The notes: generated from the letters alone by a model not told the origin. A stretch of 64,000 nt of DNA from Pseudomonas sp. (GCA_051646165.1 JBOFCR010000062.1:785-64784), one strand, 5' to 3'. Numbered from the stretch's first letter, positions 1,779 to 51,704 are shown. Program-made: numbers and translations.

Positions 1779-5305
<3,527 letters not shown>

Positions 5306-5310
5306 TCCAG
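5306..5310 (+). repeat. 5-bp target-site duplication TCCAG (left copy; right copy 14550-14554)
   Basis: TGA|TCCAG|TGTCG at the left end and CGACA|TCCAG|TCAG at the right end. Confidence 0.9.
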
Positions 5311-5317
5311 TGTCGGT

Positions 5318-5390
5318 GGGCACATTTGATGTCATGTACTCACCTATAGAAATCAGATACTTAGCGCCATAAGTGGGCATTTAAAATGTC
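5318..5390 (-). repeat. Two putative transposase (TnsB-like) binding sites in the gyrB-proximal end
   Basis: Reverse complements GACATCAAATGTGCCC (5318-5333) and GACATTTTAAATGCCC (5375-5390), the same motif as the four distal-end sites. Confidence 0.72.
5351..5363 (+). promoter_or_regulatory. Putative IHF binding site between the two proximal-end transposase sites
   Basis: AATCAGATACTTA matches WATCARNNNNTTR at all fixed positions. Confidence 0.6.
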
Positions 5391-5410
5391 GTCTTAGGGA
5401 TCTAAGTAGT

Positions 5411-5444
5411 AAAGAAAAACCCCGGGATTCCGGGGTTTTTCTTT
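5411..5444. terminator. Bidirectional intrinsic terminator carried by the element (gyrB on +, M48 gene on -)
   Basis: Perfect 15-bp inverted repeat AAAGAAAAACCCCGG-gatt-CCGGGGTTTTTCTTT. Confidence 0.88.
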
Positions 5445-5469
5445 TATAAACATAAGCTTAGGTTGTTCT

Positions 5470-6198
5470 TCAGCGATCCCATCGCTCCTCGGCGAGCAGA
5501 CTGGTGTTGAGTTCGTCCCGAACCAATCGCCACTGGGGAAGTTGTTGATCCAACAGAGCAATGAAGCGGTCGTTATGGTGGCGCTCATGCAGGTGAGCCA
5601 GTTCATGCACCAGGATGTACTCCAGGCACTGCACCGGCTTCTTGGCCAGTTCCAGATTGAGCCAGATGCGCCGCGCTTCGATGTTGCAGGTGCCCCATTT
5701 GGTCTTCATCCGCTTGATGCCCCAGGCCCGCGCTTCAACCCTAAGCTTGGGCTGCCATTTCTCCAGCAGCTCCGGCACCAAGCGCTTTAACTCAGCTCGA
5801 TAGAAGTCATGCAGTACCTGCTCGCGGCGTTCGACTGTAGTGTCAGGGCGAACAAACAAATCCATGGTGGCTTTGCCGCGCAGGGCAATACGTAACGCGC
5901 CTGTGGTTTCGTGAACACGTAGGCGGTAGCGACGGCCAAGGAAGTAATGGCTCTCGCCACTGACCATACGCCGCTGGGATTGCCTGGGCTGGGCCTGAAA
6001 CTTTGCCCGCTGGCGTTTGATCCAGCCTAGCTTGCCCACCACGGCCAAGCGCACAGCTTCATCGTCTACCGCCAACGGAGCGGCCACACGCACGCGCCCC
6101 TGCGGCGGATAAACGCCCAGGTGCAGGTTTTTGATCGGCTTGCGCACGACCTCCACGGTCAAACCGCTGACCGTGATGCTGCGCGACTCAGTATTCAT
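5470..6198 (-). CDS. M48/YgjP (DUF45, SprT-like) zinc metalloprotease of the kind found 3' of type I R-M loci
   Basis: MKTKWGTCN and ILVHELAHL (HExxH) motifs; likely ATG at 6198 overlaps the hsdR remnant's end. Confidence 0.85.
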   Translation of the reverse strand: MNTESRSITVSGLTVEVVRKPIKNLHLGVYPPQGRVRVAAPLAVDDEAVRLAVVGKLGWIKRQRAKFQAQPRQSQRRMVSGESHYFLGRRYRLRVHETTGALRIALRGKATMDLFVRPDTTVERREQVLHDFYRAELKRLVPELLEKWQPKLRVEARAWGIKRMKTKWGTCNIEARRIWLNLELAKKPVQCLEYILVHELAHLHERHHNDRFIALLDQQLPQWRLVRDELNTSLLAEERWDR

Positions 6199-6376
6199 GC
6201 TGATGCTTGACCAGTTCAAGCAAGGCTTTCAGCCGCTCGTTGTCTTGCCCGGCCGAGTAGCTGCCCTGCGATTCGGCGGAGTCTTTGCCCCACTGATCCA
6301 GCACGTTCTTAATCGCCAGGCGAACACGTTTGATCTTCATGGAATTGCTGCGCCAGTCGTCCTGCCGGCTACGCAC
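6188..6376 (-). pseudogene. hsdR: 3'-terminal remnant of type I restriction subunit HsdR
   Basis: RQDDWRSNSMKIKRVRLAIKNVL...LLELVKHQHEY* resembles type I HsdR C-termini; lies directly upstream of the M48 gene; no upstream body. Confidence 0.7.
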
Positions 6377-6522
6377 CTGGTGAAAATGGGGTATGCGGTA
6401 TGAGTGCGGAGGTTAAGCCAGGCTATCGAAGGACTGAGGTGGGGGTAATACCAAACGAATGGCAGGTCAAAAGCCTATCTGAAATTTCAGACAAGATCAT
6501 GGTTGGTATTGCCAGTTCAGCG
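6368..6522 (+). pseudogene. hsdS: Inverted fragment: last codons of hsdM (ATHLVKMGYAV*) plus first 41 codons of hsdS
   Basis: ATGA stop/start overlap at 6400-6403; MSAEVKPGYRRTEVGVIPNEWQVKSLSEI is a typical HsdS N-terminus; opposite strand to the flanking hsdM and hsdR remnants. Confidence 0.75.
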
Positions 6523-6704
6523 AAGCTACCGCCCTCGGGCACCTCAATCAGAGAGTTGGGGTCACCAGCGTACTTGTCCGAAACGTACTTCACGAACAGC
6601 AGTACCAGGACGTAGTCCTTGTACTGCGAGGCATCCATGCCGCCGCGCAGCTCGTCGCAGGATTTCCACAGGGAGGAATAGAGTTCGGATTTCTTGATGG
6701 CCAT
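6516..6704 (-). pseudogene. hsdM: 5' remnant (~62 codons) of type I methyltransferase HsdM
   Basis: MAIKKSELYSSLWKSCDELRGGMDASQYKDYVLVLLFVKYVSD is the HsdM N-terminal domain; the frame then runs into antisense hsdS and stops at 6423. Confidence 0.85.
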
Positions 6705-6709
6705 TATTT

Positions 6710-6985
6710 TTGCCTTACCGCTTTCGGGGCGAAGATTTTTTGAGTGCCTCGTCAATATCGCGAAGCGCTGAAACGCTTCGAACTGCCGCGCGGTGCTGGC
6801 AGGAGGCGCAGTTGATTCGTGCCTATCTAGATGCTCTTGAGCAGGGGGCCCAATCGAGCCAAGAAGGGGTGAGCGATGCTCAACGCGACTATTTGCATTG
6901 GGCGCGGGCTAAGGCCAATTGGCTGGATCCATTAGTTGATTCGCCGGATGCCATCTTGGATCAGGTAATCCGGGTGCCCTACTGA
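6710..6985 (+). pseudogene. Probable C-terminal remnant of a hypothetical protein
   Basis: WQEAQLIRAYLDAL...YLHWARAKANWLDPL looks like a conserved helical C-terminus; no convincing start or RBS. Confidence 0.4.
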
Positions 6986-7013
6986 CTGAGCGGACGCCAA
7001 GGGAGTCGATGCT

Positions 7014-7460
7014 ATGTTGGAGCTGCGGCCATATCGGCCCGAACCTGTTGTTGCATCCGGTTTCTGGGAGCAACTAGGAATCCCCCTACAGGGGAATGCC
7101 CTCATTGAGCAGGTACGGGCCGGATTTTCCTTTGCCACTCTAGAGCGTTTGGCCGTCGCATCTGCGTTTACCGAGACAGAGCTGGCGGGCATGGTGGGTT
7201 TGTCCCGTTATGCTTTGCGTCAGGGTCGCCGTAAGGGGCGATTGTCGACGCCGCAAAGTGATCGGCTGTACCGGGTAGCTCGCATTATCGCCGCAGCTAG
7301 CGAGTTATTTCGGGGTGATCAGGTGGCTGTAAAGCAATGGCTGGTTGCGCCGCAATTTGGTCTTGGTGGGGTGCAGCCAGTGGCGATGCTTGCTACTGAA
7401 ATTGAGGGAAACGTTGTTCTCAATCTGATTGGCCGAATTGAACATAGCGTTGCTATCTAG
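7014..7460 (+). CDS. Xre/MbcA/ParS-type antitoxin (HTH + DUF2384-like domain), no cognate RES toxin gene
   Basis: RBS AAGGGAG; GRLSTPQSDRLYRVARI and KQWLVAPQFGLGGVQPVAML...VLNLIGRIEH motifs. Confidence 0.8.
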   Translation: MLELRPYRPEPVVASGFWEQLGIPLQGNALIEQVRAGFSFATLERLAVASAFTETELAGMVGLSRYALRQGRRKGRLSTPQSDRLYRVARIIAAASELFRGDQVAVKQWLVAPQFGLGGVQPVAMLATEIEGNVVLNLIGRIEHSVAI

Positions 7461-7585
7461 GCGACTGGCTTCAGTTTTCGCTACGGTTACAGGGGGGGCG
7501 GCCAGCGGTCTGACCTTGATCGGTACATTGAACAAGGTGTGCAGGTTTAAAGTGCCGCACAGAAAAGTCTAGGCGGCTCTTTGCT

Positions 7586-43624: not shown

Positions 43625-44530
43625 TCAGCGGGCGATCCAGGGCTGCCGCGCCAGCTGTTCGGCCAGGTAGTCGAGGAAGCACTGGATGCGCGAGGCCAGC
43701 GCGGTGTTGCGGTAGTACACCGCGTTGATCGGCTGGCGCAAGTCCAGGGTCTGTTCGTCCAGCACCTGCACCAGGGCCCCGCTGGCGCGATCGGGGCTGG
43801 TCATGAAGTCCGACATGTAGGCGATGCCGGCGCCGGCCAGGGCCAGCTGGCGCAGGGTCTCGCCGCTGGAGGCGCGGATCTGCGGGACGACGGCCAGGTT
43901 GTCGCCGAGCGGGTGGTGCAGCGGCCACAGGTTGAGGCTGTCCGGCTGGGTGAAGCCGAGCAGGCTGTGCTGCTCCAGCTCCGCCACGCTGCCGGGCGTG
44001 CCGTGGGTGGCCAGATAGCCCGGGCTGGCCAGCAGGCGCAGACGGTTACTGCCCAGCGGCCGCGCATGCAGGCTGGAGTCGCGCAGGGTGCCGAGGCGAA
44101 TGGCCAGGTCGGTGCGCTGCTCCAGCAGGTCGATGTACTGGTCGTTGCTGGTCAGCTCCAGCTCGATCTGCGGGAAACGCTGGCGAAACCCGGCCACCAG
44201 CGGCACCAGCACATGCAGCATGAAGGGCGAGGCGGCATCGACCCGCAGGCGCCCGGCGGGTAGCTGGCGGCGCAGGGCCATCTGCTCCTCGGCCTCCTCG
44301 ACGCTGGCGAGAATGCGCCGCGCCTGGGCAAGCAAGGCCGCGCCCTCTTCGGTCAGCTCCAGGCGCCGGGTGGTGCGGCGCAGCAAGGTGACTTCGAGCT
44401 TGTCCTCCAGCCGGCTGAGCGCCCGGCTGACTCCCGAGGCAGTCTGCCCGAGGTGCTCGGCGGCGCTGCTGATCGAGCCGCTGTCGACTACGTTGGTGAA
44501 GGCGAGCAATTCGTCGAGGGTGGTTTTCAT
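43625..44530 (-). CDS. LysR-family transcriptional regulator (YafC/DmlR-like)
   Basis: SGVSRALSRLEDKL, LLRRTTRRLELTEEG, DLAIR. Confidence 0.92.
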   Translation of the reverse strand: MKTTLDELLAFTNVVDSGSISSAAEHLGQTASGVSRALSRLEDKLEVTLLRRTTRRLELTEEGAALLAQARRILASVEEAEEQMALRRQLPAGRLRVDAASPFMLHVLVPLVAGFRQRFPQIELELTSNDQYIDLLEQRTDLAIRLGTLRDSSLHARPLGSNRLRLLASPGYLATHGTPGSVAELEQHSLLGFTQPDSLNLWPLHHPLGDNLAVVPQIRASSGETLRQLALAGAGIAYMSDFMTSPDRASGALVQVLDEQTLDLRQPINAVYYRNTALASRIQCFLDYLAEQLARQPWIAR

Positions 44531-44571
44531 GGCGCTGCCGGTGTGTGGAGCCTGCACTCATGATCGCACGG

Positions 44572-44760: not shown

Positions 44761-45783
44761 ATGCTTAGCGAGCAGCAATGGGATGAGTTCGAGCAGCAGG
44801 GTTTTATCCATCTTGGCCGCCTGCTCGACGCCGATGCAATAGCCGCGCTGACCCGGCGCGCGGATGATTTGGCCAGTGGTGTGCAGGTCAATCCTGCAGT
44901 GCAGCTGCAGCTGGATACGGGCGGCGACTACGACGCCCTGCCGGCAGCGGTCAGCCAGCTGGCTACAGGCACGCACCTTTACCGCAAGGTGCAGGGGCTG
45001 GAGAACGACGAGCTGTTCGCTCCCCTGGTGCAGCACCCGCTGTTCGGCGAGATCTGCGCCCACCTCTATGGTTCCCATGCCCCGGTCTCGCTGTTTCGCG
45101 CGATGATCATGAACAAGCCGGCCGGCCAGGGCACCTACCTGCCCTGGCACCAGGACGGTGGCGACGTGTGGGCGCTGGATCGCGATCCGCTGGTGACCAT
45201 CTGGGTCGCGCTGGATCCGGCTACCCGCACCAACGGCTGCGTCGAGGTGATTCCCGGCTCCCACCGCCTGGGTCTGCTCAGCGCCCACGGCAGCACCCTG
45301 AGTGCGGATGACATGCAGCGTCATTGTCCCGCGGAACAGGTGTTGCCGCTGGAGCTCGAAGCCGGACATGGTTTGCTGCTGCACAACTGGCTGATCCATC
45401 GCTCGGGTATCAATCCGTCCAATCAGCCGCGTCGTGCCTTCACGGCCTGCTACATGGATGGGCGCACGCGCAGCGTGCTGACCGGCAACCATTTCCCGCT
45501 GGTCTCCGGCGCATTGGATGAGGCGCCGCACCATTACGTGCGCCAGCTGCATACCGACCTGGCCGCCCTGCGCCATTCCCAGGGTGTGGCCGAGGAGTAC
45601 GCGCACTCTCTGGAAGCAGAGGTGGCACGCCTGCGTAGCAAGGTGAGTGAGGTGGAGGCCTATGCCAAGAGCCTGGAGCAGGAGCGCGCCAGTCGCTCGC
45701 CGGATACAGCCCCGGCTCCGATCCCGGAGCGCCGTGGCCTGATGTCCAGGGTGGCGGATGCGCTAGGGTCGCGCTCGCGGTGA
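44761..45783 (+). CDS. PhyH-family 2-oxoglutarate/Fe(II) dioxygenase with C-terminal coiled coil
   Basis: WHQD (HxD), TIWVALD, GCVEVIPGSH, IHRSG-N...RRA; helical tail. Confidence 0.82.
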   Translation: MLSEQQWDEFEQQGFIHLGRLLDADAIAALTRRADDLASGVQVNPAVQLQLDTGGDYDALPAAVSQLATGTHLYRKVQGLENDELFAPLVQHPLFGEICAHLYGSHAPVSLFRAMIMNKPAGQGTYLPWHQDGGDVWALDRDPLVTIWVALDPATRTNGCVEVIPGSHRLGLLSAHGSTLSADDMQRHCPAEQVLPLELEAGHGLLLHNWLIHRSGINPSNQPRRAFTACYMDGRTRSVLTGNHFPLVSGALDEAPHHYVRQLHTDLAALRHSQGVAEEYAHSLEAEVARLRSKVSEVEAYAKSLEQERASRSPDTAPAPIPERRGLMSRVADALGSRSR

Positions 45784-47432
45784 GCGCGCCACCACCGCCC
45801 CTCATCAAGAGCATTGGCCATGTCCTGCTGATTGGCGACCTGGCTGGGCCCGAGCATTTCCATGTCGGCGACGAGGCGATGCTCGAATGCAACCTGCAGA
45901 TGCTGCGCCGTCTGTTGCCGGCGGCCAGTTTCAGTCTGGTCTCGCGCAACCCGGCTGCCAGTGCCGATCTGTACGGCACCAGGGCCGTTGCGCGGCCCGG
46001 CTTTTCCACGGTCTCCGCCGACCGGCAAGCGGAATTGCATCAGATAGACCACTGGCTGGAGTTGGCCGGGCAACAACCCGAGCAACTGCCAGAGGCCCTG
46101 CAAGCTTTGTTGCAGGCGGATCTGCTGGTGATCTCCGGTGGCGGCAATCTGTCCAGCACCTGGCCCGAGTACATCCTCGAGCGCCTGGCCCTGGTGCGCC
46201 TGGCCCGTCAGCAAGGCATTCCGCTGCTGGTGTTCGGCCAGACCCTGGGGCCGCAGCTGGATGAGGTCGATCGCGCCTTGGTCAGCGAAATTCTCATGGC
46301 GGCGCAGTGGGTTGGTCTGCGCGAGGCCGGCTCGGTTGCTCAGGCACTAGAGCTGGGTGTGCCGCTGGCTAACATCGATTATCAGCTGGACGACGCCATG
46401 GCCTTGGCTCCTCGCCCAAGCGCTCTATTGGCGTCGGCCTGGGCAGAGGAGGCGAATCGTGGCCCGCTGATTGCCTTGACCTTGCATCCGCTGTTTGTTG
46501 GTGCGGAGCGTGAGTGTTGGCTGAATGACGTGGCGGCGGAGCTGGATCAGGTGGTGGCCGAGTTGGACGCGCGTCTGCTGTTCATCCCCCATGTGCGCGA
46601 CCAGCAGGAGAGTGGCGATGCGGGTGATCGGGCGGTTGGTCTGGCTCTGGCTGCGCGACTGCAGCAGCCGGCGGCAATGTCCGTGCTCGACGTGCAGGGG
46701 AGCGGCGAAACTGCCTGGCTCACCCAGCAGGCTGATCTGGTGGTCAGCTCGCGTTATCACCCACTGGTATTCGCCCTGGCCCGCCAGCGGCCCTGCCTGG
46801 GCCTGCCAACAGACCATTACACCCTGATCAAGCTGCAGGGTGCGCTGAGTCATGCGGGTTGCGAGGCCGATCTACTGGTGATTCGCGACAGGCGTTGGGA
46901 TGGGCTGGGGCGTCGCATCATCGCGCAGATCCGTGCCGCTAGCATTGACTCTCAGGATCGGTACTGGTCGACCAGGCTGGAGCAACATGGCAGGGATCGC
47001 GAGCAGCGCCTGGCAGCCTGGTTGTACAAACAGCAGCAGCCCCCTGCTCACGACAATACCGAGCTGGTACTGGCCCTGGCTCGCCTGCTTGATGGGGCGG
47101 CGCAGACTCGTCTGGCCCTGGCGCGTGAGGCGGAATTGCGTGATGCCATCGAGCACTGGCAGCAGAGCGCCCAGGAGGCCGAGACCTATGCACTGGATCT
47201 GGTGGCCGGGCTGCGCCGGGAAACCGATGAGAGTGCCAGTTTGCGTGTTGCGCTTGAAGCGAGCTTACGGCGTGCTGAGTTGGCGGAGCGCTATGCCCAG
47301 GGGCTTGAAGCGGCCCGTCAGAGCGAAGCAGCGCAATATGCGCGCAACCTGGCGCTGGAGCGCAGTGGTCGAGCGAAAACCTTGCTCAGGCTGCGGCGCC
47401 TGATGCGCCGGCTGTCCCGTAGCTCGCGCTGA
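45780..47432 (+). CDS. Polysaccharide pyruvyl transferase family protein with C-terminal coiled coil
   Basis: HVGDEAM, SGGGNL, GQTLGP, LREAGS, SSRYH; overlaps the upstream stop (GTGA). Confidence 0.8.
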   Translation: MSAPPPPLIKSIGHVLLIGDLAGPEHFHVGDEAMLECNLQMLRRLLPAASFSLVSRNPAASADLYGTRAVARPGFSTVSADRQAELHQIDHWLELAGQQPEQLPEALQALLQADLLVISGGGNLSSTWPEYILERLALVRLARQQGIPLLVFGQTLGPQLDEVDRALVSEILMAAQWVGLREAGSVAQALELGVPLANIDYQLDDAMALAPRPSALLASAWAEEANRGPLIALTLHPLFVGAERECWLNDVAAELDQVVAELDARLLFIPHVRDQQESGDAGDRAVGLALAARLQQPAAMSVLDVQGSGETAWLTQQADLVVSSRYHPLVFALARQRPCLGLPTDHYTLIKLQGALSHAGCEADLLVIRDRRWDGLGRRIIAQIRAASIDSQDRYWSTRLEQHGRDREQRLAAWLYKQQQPPAHDNTELVLALARLLDGAAQTRLALAREAELRDAIEHWQQSAQEAETYALDLVAGLRRETDESASLRVALEASLRRAELAERYAQGLEAARQSEAAQYARNLALERSGRAKTLLRLRRLMRRLSRSSR

Positions 47433-47461
47433 TAACACTGTCTGCATCTGCAGGCGCGATC

Positions 47462-48754
47462 CTACTGAGCCGGTTGTTTCAGTGTTCTCCGCTCCAGGCG
47501 GCTCGTCAGCCAGCGCAGCGGTGCGGTAATCCGCCATGAGCGGCTCGAATGAATAAGCCTCAGTCGTTCTTGGGCATAAGCAAGCTGGGCCTGTGTATCG
47601 GCCAGCAGATCTTGTGCATGCCATAGCTGGATCTGGGTGGAATCTGCTCGCGCTGCGTGTTCGGCGGCCTGGCGTTCACGGAAAATGGCGTTGATGAAGG
47701 TCTGTGCGACGCGCTGCTGTCTCTCCAGTTCAAGTTGTACCTCCAGCGCTGTTGCCGTGCTGGCGGCAACAGGTATCGGTCCCGTGCTGTAGGCCTTGGC
47801 CAGTAGCGCGTCAAGGTCGAAGAAGGCCAGTGGTTGTGCGGCGCAGGTGGTGACCAGAATGCCATGCGCGGCCTGGATATCCAGGCCCTTTGGACCGCCT
47901 TCCTGAGGGTTGCCATCACTACCCCGACGAAACACCTCGTCGTCCATCACTTGCAGGCTTATGCACGGGTCGTAGATGCCCTGCCAGTGGCCGTCGGTCT
48001 GGGCATAAACATGCACATAGGGTGCACCGGCATCCGTCATCAGCACATAACGGTCATCGTCACTGATGCGCAGGCCATGGGGATACGTTGCCCCGCGCAA
48101 CACCGCCACAGGGTCCGCTTCTGTATTCAGGCTGCTGTCATTGGCGTAGAGCAGGCCACTCTGCGTGCTATGGCTGCTGACGGCCAGCCAGCGCCGGTTG
48201 CGGCTGATGCTGATGCCATCCGGCATTTCCAGCCACTTGTCCACCAGCATGTGTTCTTCAGTGATGGCGTAGCCCTGCTCGGCATCAATCAGATGCCGCG
48301 ATACCTGATGGCCTATGGTGCGGCAGACCAGTAGTTCGTATTGGCTTGGGCTCAGCCGCGAGACAACTACCGATCCCGGACCCTGCATGGCCCACTTCTC
48401 GGTCGAGAAGCGCTGGATTAACGGTAATTCATCGCCATTGCGGATATCTGCCGGCAGGTGAAACAGGCATAGATCACCATCGCGATTGGCTACCGCGAGC
48501 GTTTCGTTATCGAGGAAATCCAGGCCGTGGGGATATTGCAGATGGCTGGAGACCAGAAATGCACCCGCACTCAGGTGAATCTGTTTGCCGGCGCTGGTGT
48601 GCAGTATCTCGATATCGAAAACGAAGATCTGATCGCGACTGATCGAGGTCAGGGCGAGGCGCCGGTAATCGGGGGAGAAGCGCAGATCCTCGGTGCGCTG
48701 GATGATGGCGAGGAGATCCAGTACTGCCGGCGTGGCGGAGAAGCCGAGTTGCAT
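47462..48754 (-). CDS. Beta-propeller protein with coiled coil and SRSWRITAPLR tail
   Basis: Repeated YPHG/MPDG/YPHG/GPKG blade motifs; C-terminal IHSSRSWRITAPLRWL. Confidence 0.7.
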   Translation of the reverse strand: MQLGFSATPAVLDLLAIIQRTEDLRFSPDYRRLALTSISRDQIFVFDIEILHTSAGKQIHLSAGAFLVSSHLQYPHGLDFLDNETLAVANRDGDLCLFHLPADIRNGDELPLIQRFSTEKWAMQGPGSVVVSRLSPSQYELLVCRTIGHQVSRHLIDAEQGYAITEEHMLVDKWLEMPDGISISRNRRWLAVSSHSTQSGLLYANDSSLNTEADPVAVLRGATYPHGLRISDDDRYVLMTDAGAPYVHVYAQTDGHWQGIYDPCISLQVMDDEVFRRGSDGNPQEGGPKGLDIQAAHGILVTTCAAQPLAFFDLDALLAKAYSTGPIPVAASTATALEVQLELERQQRVAQTFINAIFRERQAAEHAARADSTQIQLWHAQDLLADTQAQLAYAQERLRLIHSSRSWRITAPLRWLTSRLERRTLKQPAQ

Positions 48755-48823: not shown

Positions 48824-48849
48824 CAAAAGCCGCCCTAGGGCGGCTTTTG
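48824..48849. terminator. trpBA terminator
   Basis: CAAAAGCCGCCC-ta-GGGCGGCTTTTG. Confidence 0.75.
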
Positions 48850-48863
48850 AGTGCTGGCGATGG

Positions 48864-49672
48864 TCAGCCGCGCGCGCCGCGCACCCCTTCGGCCAGCTGG
48901 CGGCACAGGCCGAGTACGCCGTCCACGGCTTGCTGGTCGTTCTGCGCATTGGCGATCTGGTCGATCAGCGCCGAGCCGACCACCACGCCGTCGGCCAGGC
49001 GGGCGATGGTCGCCGCGTGTTCCGGGGTGCGGATGCCGAAGCCGATGCTGATCGGCAGGTCGGTGTGGCGGCGCAGGCGGGCCACGGCTTCCTGCACGTG
49101 CTCGATGGTCGCGCTGCCCGAGCCGGTCACGCCGGCCACCGAGACGTAGTAGACGAAGCCGGAGCTGCCGTTGAGCACGGTGGGCAGGCGCTGGTCGTCG
49201 GTGGTCGGGGTGGTCAGGCGGATGAAGTCGAGGCCGGCGGCCTGGGCCGGGTCGCACAGGTCGACGTTATGTTCCGGCGGCAGGTCGACCACGATCAGGC
49301 CGTCCACGCCGGCTTCCTTGGCGTCGGCGATAAAGCGCGGCACGCCGTAGTAGTGGATCGGGTTGAAATAGCCCATCAGCACCAGCGGAGTGGTCTGGTT
49401 CTCGGCGCGGAACTCGCGAACCATCTGCAGGGTTTTCGCCAGGTTCTGCTTGGCCGCCAGGGCGCGGATGTTGGCCAGCTGGATGGCCGGGCCGTCGGCC
49501 ATCGGGTCGGTGAACGGCATGCCCAGCTCGATCACGTCGGCGCCAGCGTCCGGCAGGCCCTTGAGGATGGCCAGGGAGGCGTCGTAGTGGGGGTCGCCGG
49601 CGGTGACGAAGGTCACCAGGGCGGCGCGGTTCTGTTGTTTCAGCTCGGCAAATCGGCTTTGCAGACGGCTCA

Positions 49673-51035: not shown

Positions 51036-51704
51036 ATGAGAATGGCCTGGCTTTGGCTTTTTCCGCTGATCGGCGTGGCGTTGTTGGCGGGTGCAGTGGC
51101 GGTTCAGGTACACCGCGTGGGCGACCAGGCCAACATGTTGGCCGCCACCGGCACGGTGACCGATATCGCCGGCGGTTGCCCGACCATTGAGTTTTCAACG
51201 GTTAATGGTGATGCCGTGAGCTTCCGTGGCGGGGTCTGCAGCAACCCGCCGAGCTTCGATATTGGCGAACCGGCGGCGGTGCTCTACGACGCGGCCAACC
51301 CCAGCCACGCCCAACTCGATAGCTTCATGGAGAACTGGTTTGCCAGCCTGATACTGGGCGGCATCGGCGCGCTGTTCACCCTGCTTGGTCTGGTCTTCGT
51401 ACTGCCTCCGCTATTTGCCAAGCGCCGCGCCGCCGAACTGAGCGTCAGCGGCCAGCCGGTGTTTGCCGACCTGGTCAGCGTGCGCCTCAACGAGTCGCTC
51501 AGCGTCAACGGCGTGCACCCGTGGAAGATCGACGCGCAGTGGCTGAACCCGGCGACCAACAAGCTACATCTGTTTTCCAGCGACAACCTGTGGTTTGACC
51601 CCAGCCCCTACATTACCCAGCAGCAGGTACGCGTGTTGATCGACCCGCAGAAGCCCAAGCGCTACAGCATGGATACCAGCTTCCTGCCGGAACTGGCGGA
51701 CTGA
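51036..51704 (+). CDS. DUF3592-like membrane protein
   Basis: RBS AAGGAG; TM helix - beta domain (VLYDAANPSHAQLD) - TM helix - second beta domain; stop 3 bp before trpI. Confidence 0.7.
   Translation: MRMAWLWLFPLIGVALLAGAVAVQVHRVGDQANMLAATGTVTDIAGGCPTIEFSTVNGDAVSFRGGVCSNPPSFDIGEPAAVLYDAANPSHAQLDSFMENWFASLILGGIGALFTLLGLVFVLPPLFAKRRAAELSVSGQPVFADLVSVRLNESLSVNGVHPWKIDAQWLNPATNKLHLFSSDNLWFDPSPYITQQQVRVLIDPQKPKRYSMDTSFLPELAD

What the first reader, a model, noticed from the sequence alone, without database searches (positions are those of the whole stretch)
44761..48754. Three-gene dioxygenase / pyruvyltransferase / beta-propeller module with coiled-coil tails
Seen: a PhyH-type Fe/2OG dioxygenase translationally coupled to a polysaccharide pyruvyl-transferase-family protein, and a convergent beta-propeller protein, inserted between a LysR gene and trpA. 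All three end in a predicted coiled coil plus a basic amphipathic tail (GLMSRVADAL, LLRLRRLMRRL, SRSWRITAPLRWL). Established: coiled coil plus SxSWRxTxPLR-like tails occur in enzymes of ABC-transporter-dependent glycan assembly. Inference: a satellite module that hydroxylates and pyruvylates, or otherwise caps, a surface glycan made elsewhere. This could alter phage receptors. I do not recognise this combination as a described system.
Basis: partly seen in the sequence, partly recalled or inferred. Interest (0 to 1): 0.65.

Follow-up and report, generated by a model that had tools for sequence, protein, structure and literature searches.

The report
Stalked capping enzymes for surface glycan
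Three neighbouring Pseudomonas genes encode cytoplasmic enzymes on helical stalks (an iron/2-oxoglutarate oxygenase, a pyruvate-adding transferase and a six-bladed propeller) that most likely modify or cap a surface sugar chain whose polymerase and ABC exporter lie elsewhere in the genome; the oxygenase-pyruvyltransferase pair is conserved, often as one fused protein, across several phyla, and I found no description of it.

Summary
44761-45783(+) is a PhyH-family Fe/2OG dioxygenase. 45780-47432(+) is a PS_pyruv_trans protein whose GTG start overlaps the PhyH stop (GTGA). 47462-48754(-) is a confidently modelled six-bladed beta-propeller. All three carry C-terminal helical stalks and basic tails. 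Only the propeller has the SxSWRITAPLR motif.

The "three-gene module" is really two units.
- PhyH+pyruvyltransferase is a tight pair found across phyla. 45 of 75 orthologous loci have both genes, 29 as one fused ORF. It is usually next to a GT-A-like/GT4 glycosyltransferase, and sometimes next to wzm/wzt.
- The propeller is an independent family that usually stands alone. It joins the pair only in a small Pseudomonas lineage. In another Pseudomonas the same trpA slot holds propeller x2-wzm-wzt-GT.

This genome keeps the matching GT, wzm/wzt, manC and sulfotransferases on another contig (C174), which has no stalk protein of its own.

My best reading is a satellite set of WbdD-like stalked modifying or terminating enzymes for an ABC-transporter-dependent glycan. 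The cap chemistry (pyruvate ketal plus oxidation) is undescribed. Nothing here is biochemically tested.

The parts
43625..44557 (-). LysR-family regulator, divergent from the PhyH gene (left flank; possible regulator, not shown)
   Evidence: Pfam HTH_1 + LysR_substrate. The same LysR-DAO-HTH/cupin-GS-like left flank occurs in L098-L100 and in G337.
44761..45783 (+). PhyH-family Fe(II)/2-oxoglutarate dioxygenase. Catalytic domain about aa 1-245, helical stalk about aa 250-312 carrying AEEYAHSLE and VEAYAKSLE, basic tail RRGLMSRVADALGSRSR.
   Evidence: Pfam PF05721, E 1.8e-30. H130, D132, H213 and R224/R225 are invariant in 50 orthologues. The nearest solved relatives are PHYHD1 and the sugar-acting EvdO2/HygX-type oxygenases.
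45780..47432 (+). PS_pyruv_trans-family (pyruvyl)transferase. GT-B-like catalytic domain aa 14-390, single long helix aa 439-546 with three AxxYAxxL motifs, strongly basic tail LLRLRRLMRRLSRSSR. The GTG start overlaps the PhyH stop (GTGA).
   Evidence: Pfam PF04230, E 6e-28. AF2 pLDDT 81. Foldseek finds a generic GT-B fold. Overlap seen. Motif count.
47816..48754 (-). Six-bladed beta-propeller domain (aa 1-313) of P0003. Invariant polar residues open the inner strand of each blade (T21-E22-D23, P75-H76-G77, P126..S128, P178, P225-H226-G227, G287..K289-G290..D292). No signal peptide.
   Evidence: AF2 pLDDT 93. Invariant columns over 39 homologues. Only generic WD40/NHL/YncE/PON matches.
47462..47749 (-). 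Stalk helix (aa 336-403) and tail helix (aa 405-425) of P0003. The SRSWRITAPLR motif lies at 47513-47545.
   Evidence: AF2 secondary structure. The motif is nearly invariant in the family. DNA pattern match at window 47514-47536.
48824..48849 (-). Intrinsic terminator of trpBA (11-bp stem). It separates trpA from the propeller gene, which must therefore have its own promoter.
48864..49670 (-). trpA (right flank)
   Evidence: Pfam Trp_syntA, 338 bits

Best explanation
The locus encodes cytoplasmic enzymes, each held on a helical stalk. They modify, and most likely cap at the non-reducing end, a polyprenol-linked surface glycan assembled by the ABC-transporter-dependent pathway.

The polymerase (an 847-aa GT-A-like + GT4 protein), Wzm/Wzt, ManC and several sulfotransferases sit on another contig (C174), so this is a satellite locus.

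PhyH and the pyruvyltransferase act as one bifunctional unit. Here they are two translationally coupled proteins with matching AxxYAxxL stalk motifs; elsewhere they are one fused polypeptide. The transferase would put a pyruvate ketal on the terminal sugar using PEP. The Fe/2OG oxygenase would oxidise that cap or the sugar beneath it. This is analogous to the kinase + methyltransferase two-step cap of WbdD.

The propeller is a third, independently inherited stalked enzyme of the same glycan system. Its SWRITAPLR/basic tail places it at the membrane face or at the assembly complex.

Shown: domain families, folds, stalks, gene fusion, neighbourhoods and co-occurrence across genomes.

Inferred: substrate, terminal rather than internal position, order of reactions, and the role of the tails.
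For: 1. Gene fusion. Many P0002 homologues are PS_pyruv_trans+PhyH proteins of 740-940 aa. Of 75 genome loci with a pyruvyltransferase orthologue, 45 have a PhyH orthologue (50-76% identity) within 2.5 kb, and 29 of these are one ORF. Three of three standalone PhyH orthologues from other phyla sit beside a PS_pyruv_trans gene.

2. Glycan context. 38 of 75 loci have a GT-A-like/GT4 gene homologous to own-genome C174:5404-7947 within 10 kb, and 9 have wzt. In Comamonadaceae the order is GT, then Pyr-PhyH-coiled coil-SWRxTRPLR.

3. Satellite arrangement. All 16 genomes that have the pair but no nearby GT encode the GT elsewhere. In 301 Pseudomonas genomes the full-length GT orthologue is in 3 and the pyruvyltransferase in 2, and both of those 2 have the GT.

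4. Propeller link. In G337 the same trpA-to-LysR slot holds propeller x2-wzm-wzt-GT orthologue on one strand. In Pseudomonas sp. GM18 two propellers sit beside ABC2_membrane and ABC_tran genes. The PhyH+Pyr+convergent-propeller trio recurs in L098-L101.

5. Stalks. Long helices are modelled. Stalk length varies through repeat duplication between orthologues, giving proteins of 542-667 aa.

6. Tail census. The SWR tail profile finds 7,973 cluster representatives. The long ones are GT2, GT4, methyltransferase, RgpF, sulfotransferase, PhyH or PS_pyruv_trans proteins.

7. Literature. A coiled coil is the marker of terminator proteins, and WbdD has a C-terminal membrane amphipathic helix plus a polymerase-recruitment site (PMC11231755, PMC3447403). 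K. pneumoniae O1 carries a terminal pyruvate added by WbbZ from an unlinked locus, and pyruvate terminators are proposed for P. protegens and B. vietnamiensis (PMC10629545).

8. The C174 cluster has no SWR-motif protein. The genome's second wzm/wzt system (C36) has its own built-in Sulfotransfer_3-coiled coil-SWR-RgpF-Glyphos_transf protein.

9. PhyH is much better conserved than the transferase in the same loci (60.8% against 40.3% identity; higher in 43 of 44 loci). This fits an oxygenase acting on an invariant group such as the pyruvyl cap.
Against: - There is no biochemical, structural-glycan or expression evidence.
- The C174 Wzt is only 239 aa and lacks a carbohydrate-binding module. So an obligatory cap-recognition checkpoint of the O9a type is not expected. 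The cap may only diversify the glycan, as WbbZ does.
- P0001 and P0002 lack the SWR motif, and membrane binding by their tails is only inferred.
- The propeller mostly occurs alone with mixed neighbours. It is absent from 16 of 16 other PhyH+Pyr genomes. It matches no specific enzyme family, so its chemistry is unknown.
- Pyruvyltransferases commonly decorate internal repeat units, so a terminal position is not shown.
- The Pseudomonas co-occurrence test rests on very few positive genomes.
Confidence: 0.55

Rival explanations
1. PhyH and the pyruvyltransferase decorate internal repeat units or side branches of an exopolysaccharide, capsule or O-antigen rather than its terminus. On this view the stalks only scaffold or oligomerise the enzymes at the membrane and play no part in chain termination or length control.
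For: Characterised PF04230 members (CsaB, WcaK and similar) mostly modify repeat units; this rests on family knowledge. The C174 Wzt has no CBM, so no terminal signal is required. WbbZ's terminal pyruvate is itself dispensable for export (PMC10629545).
Against: In characterised ABC-transporter-dependent systems, a catalytic head at the far end of a long coiled coil is the hallmark of terminators (PMC11231755). Stalk length varies between orthologues by repeat duplication. The fused forms end in the same SWR tail as methyltransferase and sulfotransferase terminator-like proteins.
Confidence: 0.25
2. The propeller is functionally unrelated to the PhyH/Pyr pair. On this view it is a membrane-tethered enzyme of another pathway, for example a lactonase- or esterase-like hydrolase, that merely landed in a variable chromosomal slot.
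For: 0 of 75 pyruvyltransferase loci contain a propeller, and 0 of 80 propeller loci contain PhyH or Pyr. 0 of 16 PhyH+Pyr genomes contain it. A second paralogue in this genome (C173:10822-12126) sits between unrelated genes. The gene has lower G+C (0.57-0.61) than its neighbours and its own transcription unit.
Against: In G337 it lies in one run with wzm-wzt-GT in the same slot, and in GM18 it lies beside an ABC-2 exporter. The trio recurs with a propeller only about 41% identical while PhyH is about 91% identical, so the slot is kept and the allele swapped. Its tail is the glycan-enzyme tail.
Confidence: 0.3
3. The module acts on a non-glycan or protein-linked target. Candidates are flagellin or pilin glycans, a lipid, or a secondary metabolite, since PhyH enzymes are common in natural-product pathways.
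For: The nearest solved PhyH relatives include antibiotic-tailoring oxygenases (EvdO2 and the HygX type). No glycan gene lies in the immediate window flanks, which encode polyamine-type catabolism and trpBA.
Against: The related loci analysed were screened by tblastn for PhyH, Pyr, propeller, GT and wzm/wzt only, so biosynthetic, flagellar or pilus genes were not looked for systematically. Where gene calls with Pfam domains were available I saw no such cluster, and the recurring partners found were GT-A-like/GT4, wzm/wzt and sulfotransferases. No hit to defence models.
Confidence: 0.07

Closest known systems
WbdD of E. coli O9a / K. pneumoniae O3 (kinase + methyltransferase chain terminator on a coiled-coil ruler)
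   Same: Two catalytic activities sit at the far end of an extended coiled coil. The C-terminal region is membrane-proximal. The protein works with a separate polymerase and Wzm/Wzt, on a mannose-precursor glycan (PMC3482155, PMC3447403, PMC11231755; manC in C174).
   Different: The chemistry differs (PEP-dependent pyruvyl transfer plus Fe/2OG oxidation). Here the activities are split into two coupled proteins. The genes are not linked to the exporter cluster. The partner Wzt has no CBM. I did not test whether WbdD carries the SWR motif.
WbbZ, terminal pyruvyltransferase of K. pneumoniae O1 (unlinked wbbYZ locus)
   Same: A pyruvyltransferase encoded away from the main cluster caps an ABC-transporter-dependent O-antigen. 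The exporter has no CBM, so the cap diversifies the glycan rather than gating export (PMC10629545).
   Different: The papers read mention no coiled-coil stalk and no dioxygenase partner for WbbZ. I did not measure the sequence relationship to P0002.
Single-polypeptide terminator-ruler-polymerases (WbbB of K. pneumoniae O12, ORF6 of O7)
   Same: The architecture is catalytic head, coiled coil, then membrane-proximal part. This genome's C36 protein (Sulfotransfer_3-coiled coil-SWR-RgpF x2-Glyphos_transf, next to wzm/wzt) has exactly this plan.
   Different: In the window the heads are separate proteins and the polymerase is encoded on another contig.
PhyH-family sugar oxygenases EvdO2 / HygX-type (orthoester synthases of orthosomycins) and PHYHD1
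   Same: Best solved-structure relatives of P0001 (E 1e-10 to 1e-11). They share the HxD...H/Arg site and have carbohydrate substrates.
   Different: Identity is low. Those enzymes tailor antibiotics. None is known to pair with a pyruvyltransferase or to carry a stalk.
Six-bladed NHL / PON1 / lactonase-type propellers; YncE
   Same: Fold class, plus weak profile similarity.
   Different: No family threshold is reached. The propeller has its own set of invariant residues and is fused to a coiled coil plus SWRITAPLR tail.

Membership tests
Pfam PF05721 PhyH (Fe/2OG dioxygenase) | Profile match above the gathering score over the whole domain | tested here: met
   107.3 bits against a cut-off of 22; model positions 1-213/213
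Pfam PF05721 PhyH (Fe/2OG dioxygenase) | HxD...H iron triad and a 2OG-binding Arg | tested here: met
   H130, D132, H213 and R224/R225 are invariant in 50 orthologues. Assigning these residues to their roles rests on family knowledge.
Pfam PF05721 PhyH (Fe/2OG dioxygenase) | 2OG-dependent oxidation of a defined substrate | not testable with these tools
   Requires an enzyme assay.
Named PhyH equivalogs (ectoine hydroxylase, PhnY*, chlorinases) | NCBIfam equivalog cut-off | tested here: not met
   Best score is 36.8 bits against a cut-off of 500.
Pfam PF04230 PS_pyruv_trans | Profile match above the gathering score | tested here: met
   99 bits against a cut-off of 25.3; model positions 2-280/280
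Pfam PF04230 PS_pyruv_trans | Conserved family motifs (GGGNL loop, S-x-R-x-H-P near the C-terminus of the domain) | tested here: met
   S119-G-G-G-N-L124 and S323, R325-Y-H327-P328 are invariant in 18 homologues. Their role in PEP binding is recalled from the Pvg1/CsaB literature and was not tested.
CsaB (TIGR03609 equivalog) | Equivalog cut-off | tested here: not met
   93.4 bits against a cut-off of 213.1. P0002 is not a CsaB orthologue.
Coiled-coil glycan chain terminators (WbdD type) | Catalytic domain followed by an extended coiled coil | tested here: met
   Helix 439-546 in P0002 and 336-425 in P0003. P0001 shows periodicity only. Oligomeric state was not tested.
Coiled-coil glycan chain terminators (WbdD type) | Genetic association with a polymerase and a Wzm/Wzt ABC exporter | tested here: met
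   Neighbourhoods in relatives and in G337, plus genome-level co-occurrence. In this genome the partners lie on C174.
Coiled-coil glycan chain terminators (WbdD type) | C-terminal membrane-associated amphipathic helix / polymerase recruitment site | tested here: inconclusive
   The tails are basic with raised hydrophobic moments. No membrane or interaction data exist.
Coiled-coil glycan chain terminators (WbdD type) | Wzt carries a CBM that recognises the cap | tested here: not met
   The C174 Wzt is 239 aa and consists of the ABC_tran domain only.
Coiled-coil glycan chain terminators (WbdD type) | The modification sits on the non-reducing terminus and stops polymerisation | not testable with these tools
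   Requires the glycan structure and mutants.
NHL / arylesterase (PON) / lactonase propellers | Pfam gathering score for any of these families | tested here: not met
   NHL scores 15.1 against 20; Arylesterase scores 14.8 against 21.3. PDB profile hits have E >= 1.7e-4 over a single blade.

The most novel reading that the evidence does not exclude
The PhyH-pyruvyltransferase unit makes a previously undescribed non-reducing-end cap: a pyruvate ketal further oxidised by the Fe/2OG enzyme, for example to a hydroxylated or orthoester/decarboxylated derivative. That cap would terminate or mark ABC-transporter-dependent glycans in Pseudomonadota, Acidobacteriota, Actinomycetota, Verrucomicrobiota, Chloroflexota and Myxococcota. 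The stalked SWRITAPLR propeller would be a further, wholly new class of glycan-end-processing enzyme. In this Pseudomonas the three stalks might co-assemble through their shared AxxYAxxL-type coiled coils into one complex anchored by the propeller's tail.
Probability: 0.3. Interest if true: 0.78.

Novelty: new variant of a known kind. Interest (0 to 1): 0.6.

Why it matters
Terminal caps on ABC-transporter-dependent glycans set chain length, gate export and create dominant epitopes. The known caps are methyl, methyl-phosphate, Kdo and, recently, pyruvate.

An oxygenase obligately coupled to, and often fused with, a pyruvyltransferase on a ruler-like stalk predicts new cap chemistry. Its wide distribution gives a sequence signature for finding such systems.

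The result also shows that a terminator set can be encoded as a satellite in a variable chromosomal slot. In related Pseudomonas that slot is swapped for the exporter/polymerase cluster itself. This is a plausible route to serotype and phage-receptor diversification.

The SWRxTxPLR stalk-tail module has about 8,000 cluster representatives, and no Pfam family matched it in the proteins I scanned. The stalked propeller family has no assigned function. Both are concrete targets for biochemical work.

Tried and rejected
- Literature search for the motif strings found 0 papers. A search for pyruvyl transferase + phytanoyl-CoA dioxygenase + polysaccharide also found 0.
- The Mann 2019 Glycobiology survey and the 2015 ruler paper are not held. 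I could not check whether the PhyH partner was already noted there.
- PDB sequence searches with P0002 and P0003 found nothing. Foldseek gave only generic GT-B and generic propeller matches, so no specific function could be transferred.
- A defence-system reading is rejected: no PADLOC hit.
- A recurrent-neighbour search around 80 metagenomic propeller loci found no dominant partner family.
Two WbdD-sized candidates from the tail search (P0368, P0425) are not WbdD. E. coli genomes cannot be searched by protein, so the claim is left untested.
- In 11 related Pseudomonas genomes the roughly 1.5 kb fetched beyond trpA holds no homologue of the module genes or of the LysR/DAO left flank. I did not identify what lies there, so no clean empty site or insertion scar was defined.
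- The strict DNA pattern for the motif also gave three chance hits in short ORFs (L090, L094, L097), which I discarded.

Full report
**What is there**

The window is a Pseudomonas contig (G000:C65).

- P0001 (44761-45783, plus strand) matches Pfam PhyH end to end, at 107 bits against a cut-off of 22.
- P0002 (45780-47432, plus strand) matches PS_pyruv_trans end to end, at 99 bits against 25.3. It falls short of the CsaB equivalog cut-off.
- The GTG start of P0002 overlaps the TGA stop of P0001 as GTGA, so translational coupling is plausible.
- P0003 (47462-48754, minus strand) reaches no Pfam threshold. AlphaFold2 with 39 homologues gives pLDDT 93: a six-bladed propeller (residues 1-313), a 68-residue helix (336-403), and a second helix (405-425) that carries SRSWRITAPLRWL.
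- P0002 models as a GT-B-like domain (14-390) followed by one 108-residue helix (439-546).
- P0001 was not modelled. Residues 250-315 show a 3.5-3.6-residue hydrophobic period and weak hits to coiled-coil families.
- All three tails are basic, and the P0002 tail is strongly amphipathic.
- None of the three proteins has a signal peptide or a transmembrane segment by inspection.
- A strong terminator after trpA (48849-48824) shows that the propeller gene is not read through from trpBA.

Only the propeller carries the SxSWRxTxPLR motif.

**The oxygenase and the transferase are one unit**

Homologues of P0002 include many 740-940-aa proteins that carry both PS_pyruv_trans and PhyH. Aligned, they read pyruvyltransferase, then PhyH, then coiled coil. 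In Diaphorobacter and Variovorax they end in SxSWR(I/V)TRPLR.

A scan of one genome per species returned 79 loci. Of the 75 with a clear pyruvyltransferase orthologue:
- 45 have a PhyH orthologue (50-76% identical to P0001) within 2.5 kb.
- 29 of those 45 are a single open frame.

Starting from the PhyH side, three of three standalone orthologues sampled from other phyla lie directly beside a PS_pyruv_trans gene.

The iron triad and the arginine (H130, D132, H213, R224/R225) are invariant. PhyH is much better conserved than its partner in the same loci: mean identity 60.8% against 40.3%, and higher in 43 of 44 loci. I read this as the oxygenase seeing an invariant chemical group, such as the pyruvyl cap, while the transferase adapts to different acceptor sugars. 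That reading is an inference.

The closest solved PhyH relatives are PHYHD1 and the carbohydrate-acting EvdO2/HygX-type oxygenases.

**The unit belongs to ABC-transporter-dependent glycan assembly**

Within 10 kb of the pyruvyltransferase, 38 of 75 loci have a GT-A-like/GT4 glycosyltransferase and 9 have wzt. In Comamonadaceae this GT lies immediately upstream of the fusion.

The query for that GT came from the window's own genome. C174:5404-7947 encodes an 847-aa GT-A-like + GT4 protein. It sits next to wzt (239 aa, no CBM), wzm, manC (GMP_PMI equivalog), three sulfotransferases and an AlgX-like protein, in a lower-G+C island.

- All 16 genomes that have the PhyH-Pyr pair without a nearby GT encode the GT elsewhere.
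- Among 301 Pseudomonas genomes the full-length GT orthologue occurs in 3 and the pyruvyltransferase in 2, and both of those 2 have the GT.
- This Pseudomonas sample is small. Leaving out the query genome, it comes down to one positive genome.

The genome has a second wzm/wzt pair on C36. Next to it is a 1,639-aa protein reading Sulfotransfer_3, coiled coil, HSTSWRITAPLRR, RgpF x2, Glyphos_transf. This is a built-in terminator-ruler-polymerase of the WbbB/ORF6(O7) type. The C174 system has no protein with the SWR motif. The trpA-slot genes are therefore the natural candidates to supply its stalked enzymes.

**The propeller is a separate accessory of the same system**

Its family is large. Homologues are about 40% identical over their full length, with invariant polar residues at the start of each blade and a nearly invariant S-x-S-W-R-I-T-A-P-L-R.

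Evidence that it is independent of the pair:
- Present in only 2 of 401 Pseudomonas genomes.
- Absent from all 75 pyruvyltransferase loci and from 16 of 16 PhyH+Pyr genomes.
- In 80 metagenomic loci it has no PhyH or Pyr neighbour and no dominant partner family.
- This genome has a second copy at C173:10822-12126, among unrelated genes.

Evidence that ties it to the glycan system:
- The trio PhyH, Pyr, convergent propeller recurs in four further contigs with the same left flank. There PhyH is about 91% identical and Pyr 73-76%, but the propeller only about 41%. The slot is kept while the allele is exchanged.
- In G337, the only other propeller-bearing Pseudomonas sampled, the same slot between trpI-trpB-trpA and the LysR-DAO-HTH/cupin-GS-like block holds two propellers, wzm, wzt and a 64%-identical GT orthologue, all on one strand. 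G337 has no PhyH.
- In Pseudomonas sp. GM18 two propellers sit beside an ABC-2 exporter pair.
- In Pseudomonas sp. J452 and P. fluvialis the PhyH-Pyr pair lies next to trpA with two GT-A-like genes in place of a propeller.

The trpA-proximal slot is therefore a variable glycan locus in this lineage. PhyH-Pyr and the propeller are optional, independent add-ons to the GT/wzm/wzt system.

**The tail**

A 48-position profile of the stalk end plus SWR motif found 7,973 cluster representatives at E <= 0.001 in 1.84 billion proteins. Many carry tandem copies.

Pfam on 69 of the longer hits gave:
- GT2 in 19
- GT4 in 10
- SAM methyltransferases in at least 11
- RgpF in 3
- FkbM in 2
- sulfotransferase in 2
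- WbsX, WsaF, Glyphos_transf, PhyH and PS_pyruv_trans in 1 each

Further examples support this:
- two-domain methyltransferases beside the GT in Bryobacteraceae loci;
- a methyltransferase-coiled coil-SWR-GT4 protein;
- a Sulfotransfer_3-coiled coil-SWR-GT2 protein;
- a different PhyH protein with the tail.

Two earlier notes of this scan say the module is also present in WbdD. I could not test that.

**Comparison with what is known**

- The literature defines the coiled coil as the marker of terminators in ABC-transporter-dependent assembly. WbdD has a C-terminal membrane amphipathic helix and a polymerase-recruitment region (PMC11231755, PMC3447403, PMC3482155).
- A terminal pyruvate cap added by WbbZ from an unlinked locus is established for K. 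pneumoniae O1. There the exporter lacks a CBM and the cap only diversifies the antigen.
- The same paper says that P. protegens and B. vietnamiensis "offer candidates for chain-termination ... using pyruvate" without biochemical proof (PMC10629545).
- The general idea of a stalked pyruvyltransferase terminator is therefore not new.
- I found no description of the obligate Fe/2OG oxygenase partner or fusion, the satellite/slot genetics, or the stalked propeller.
- I file the locus as a new variant of a known kind.

**Mechanism and confidence**

The most likely reading (about 0.55) runs as follows. [quoted passage not shown] They modify, probably at the non-reducing end, the mannose-precursor, sulfated glycan built by the C174 GT and exported by Wzm/Wzt. 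The propeller is a third stalked enzyme of unknown chemistry acting on the same polymer.

The short Wzt argues that the cap is not an export checkpoint.

Rival readings:
- internal decoration rather than capping (0.25);
- a propeller unrelated to the pair (0.3 for that sub-claim);
- a non-glycan target (0.07).

No expression or biochemical data were available.

Noticed in passing
own genome C36:12256-18705 (locus L185): A second wzm/wzt pair lies directly upstream of a 1,639-aa protein reading Sulfotransfer_3, coiled coil, HSTSWRITAPLRR, RgpF x2, Glyphos_transf (TarF/TarL-like). This is a single-polypeptide terminator-ruler-polymerase candidate with a sulfotransferase head.
   Followed up: partly
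own genome C174:1-10934 (locus L184): A lower-G+C (0.49-0.60) island holds manC, wzm, a short wzt, an 847-aa GT-A-like+GT4 protein, three sulfotransferases (Sulfotransfer_2 x2, Sulfotransfer_3) and an AlgX-like SGNH protein. This suggests a sulfated, mannose-derived surface glycan.
   Followed up: partly
window 45508-45696 and 47094-47417: The stalks of P0001 and P0002 share A-x-x-Y-A-x-x-L motifs (AEEYAHSL, VEAYAKSL; AETYALDL, AERYAQGL, AAQYARNL). P0002 is the only ORF of at least 200 aa in the genome with more than one strict copy. The same motif follows the PhyH domain in fused orthologues. This may mediate hetero-assembly of the split proteins.
   Followed up: partly
L008:10001-11794 (Pseudomonas sp. 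J452), L010:10001-11833 (P. fluvialis), L012, L013: Orthologues of P0002 differ in stalk length (542-667 aa) through internal duplication of a roughly 45-residue helical repeat. Propeller homologues likewise vary by AEQYAAQ-type repeat expansions (385-514 aa). This is the kind of variation expected of a ruler.
   Followed up: no
own genome C173:10822-12126 (locus L006/L186): A second propeller paralogue (about 50-52% identical, tail SHSWQITAPLRR) stands alone between a uroporphyrin-methyltransferase-like gene and an acyl-CoA-synthetase-like gene.
   Followed up: partly
L202:11418-12656 (G337): The first of two tandem propeller genes in G337 has one in-frame TAA stop and is a possible pseudogene.
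   Followed up: no
L008:8238-8486 and L010:14252-14464: A small (70-82 aa) ORF rich in ERRQ/DRR repeats accompanies the two GT-A-like genes next to PhyH-Pyr in J452 and P. fluvialis. It has no family match.
   Followed up: no
window 51036-51704: A 222-aa DUF3592 membrane protein sits between trpB and the trpI-like LysR gene. In 11 related Pseudomonas genomes, trpI directly abuts trpB. A DUF3592 gene also flanks the propeller in L098-L100.
   Followed up: partly
L009:1396-5069 and L200:12341-16005: A UbiA-family gene next to a protein of about 920 aa recurs beside the Pyr-PhyH unit in two unrelated metagenomic loci. The protein has no Pfam hit, and in L009 its sequence looks like a multi-pass membrane protein. 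This resembles the pentofuranose three-component glycan-modification systems.
   Followed up: no
A4/A5; 7,973 cluster representatives: The coiled-coil end + S-x-S-W-R-x-T-x-P-L-R + basic helix module is very widespread and often occurs in tandem copies. No Pfam family matched it in P0003 or in the other tail-bearing proteins I scanned.
   Followed up: partly
L012 and L013, about 5100-7570: In two Pseudomonas-like MAGs the PhyH-Pyr pair lies just downstream of a gene I take to be algC (phosphomannomutase/phosphoglucomutase), judged only by eye from the protein's C-terminal sequence. In L012 it is followed by a cupin-like ORF and an ORF whose N-terminus looks like a GT2. None of these assignments was checked with a family search.
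   Followed up: no
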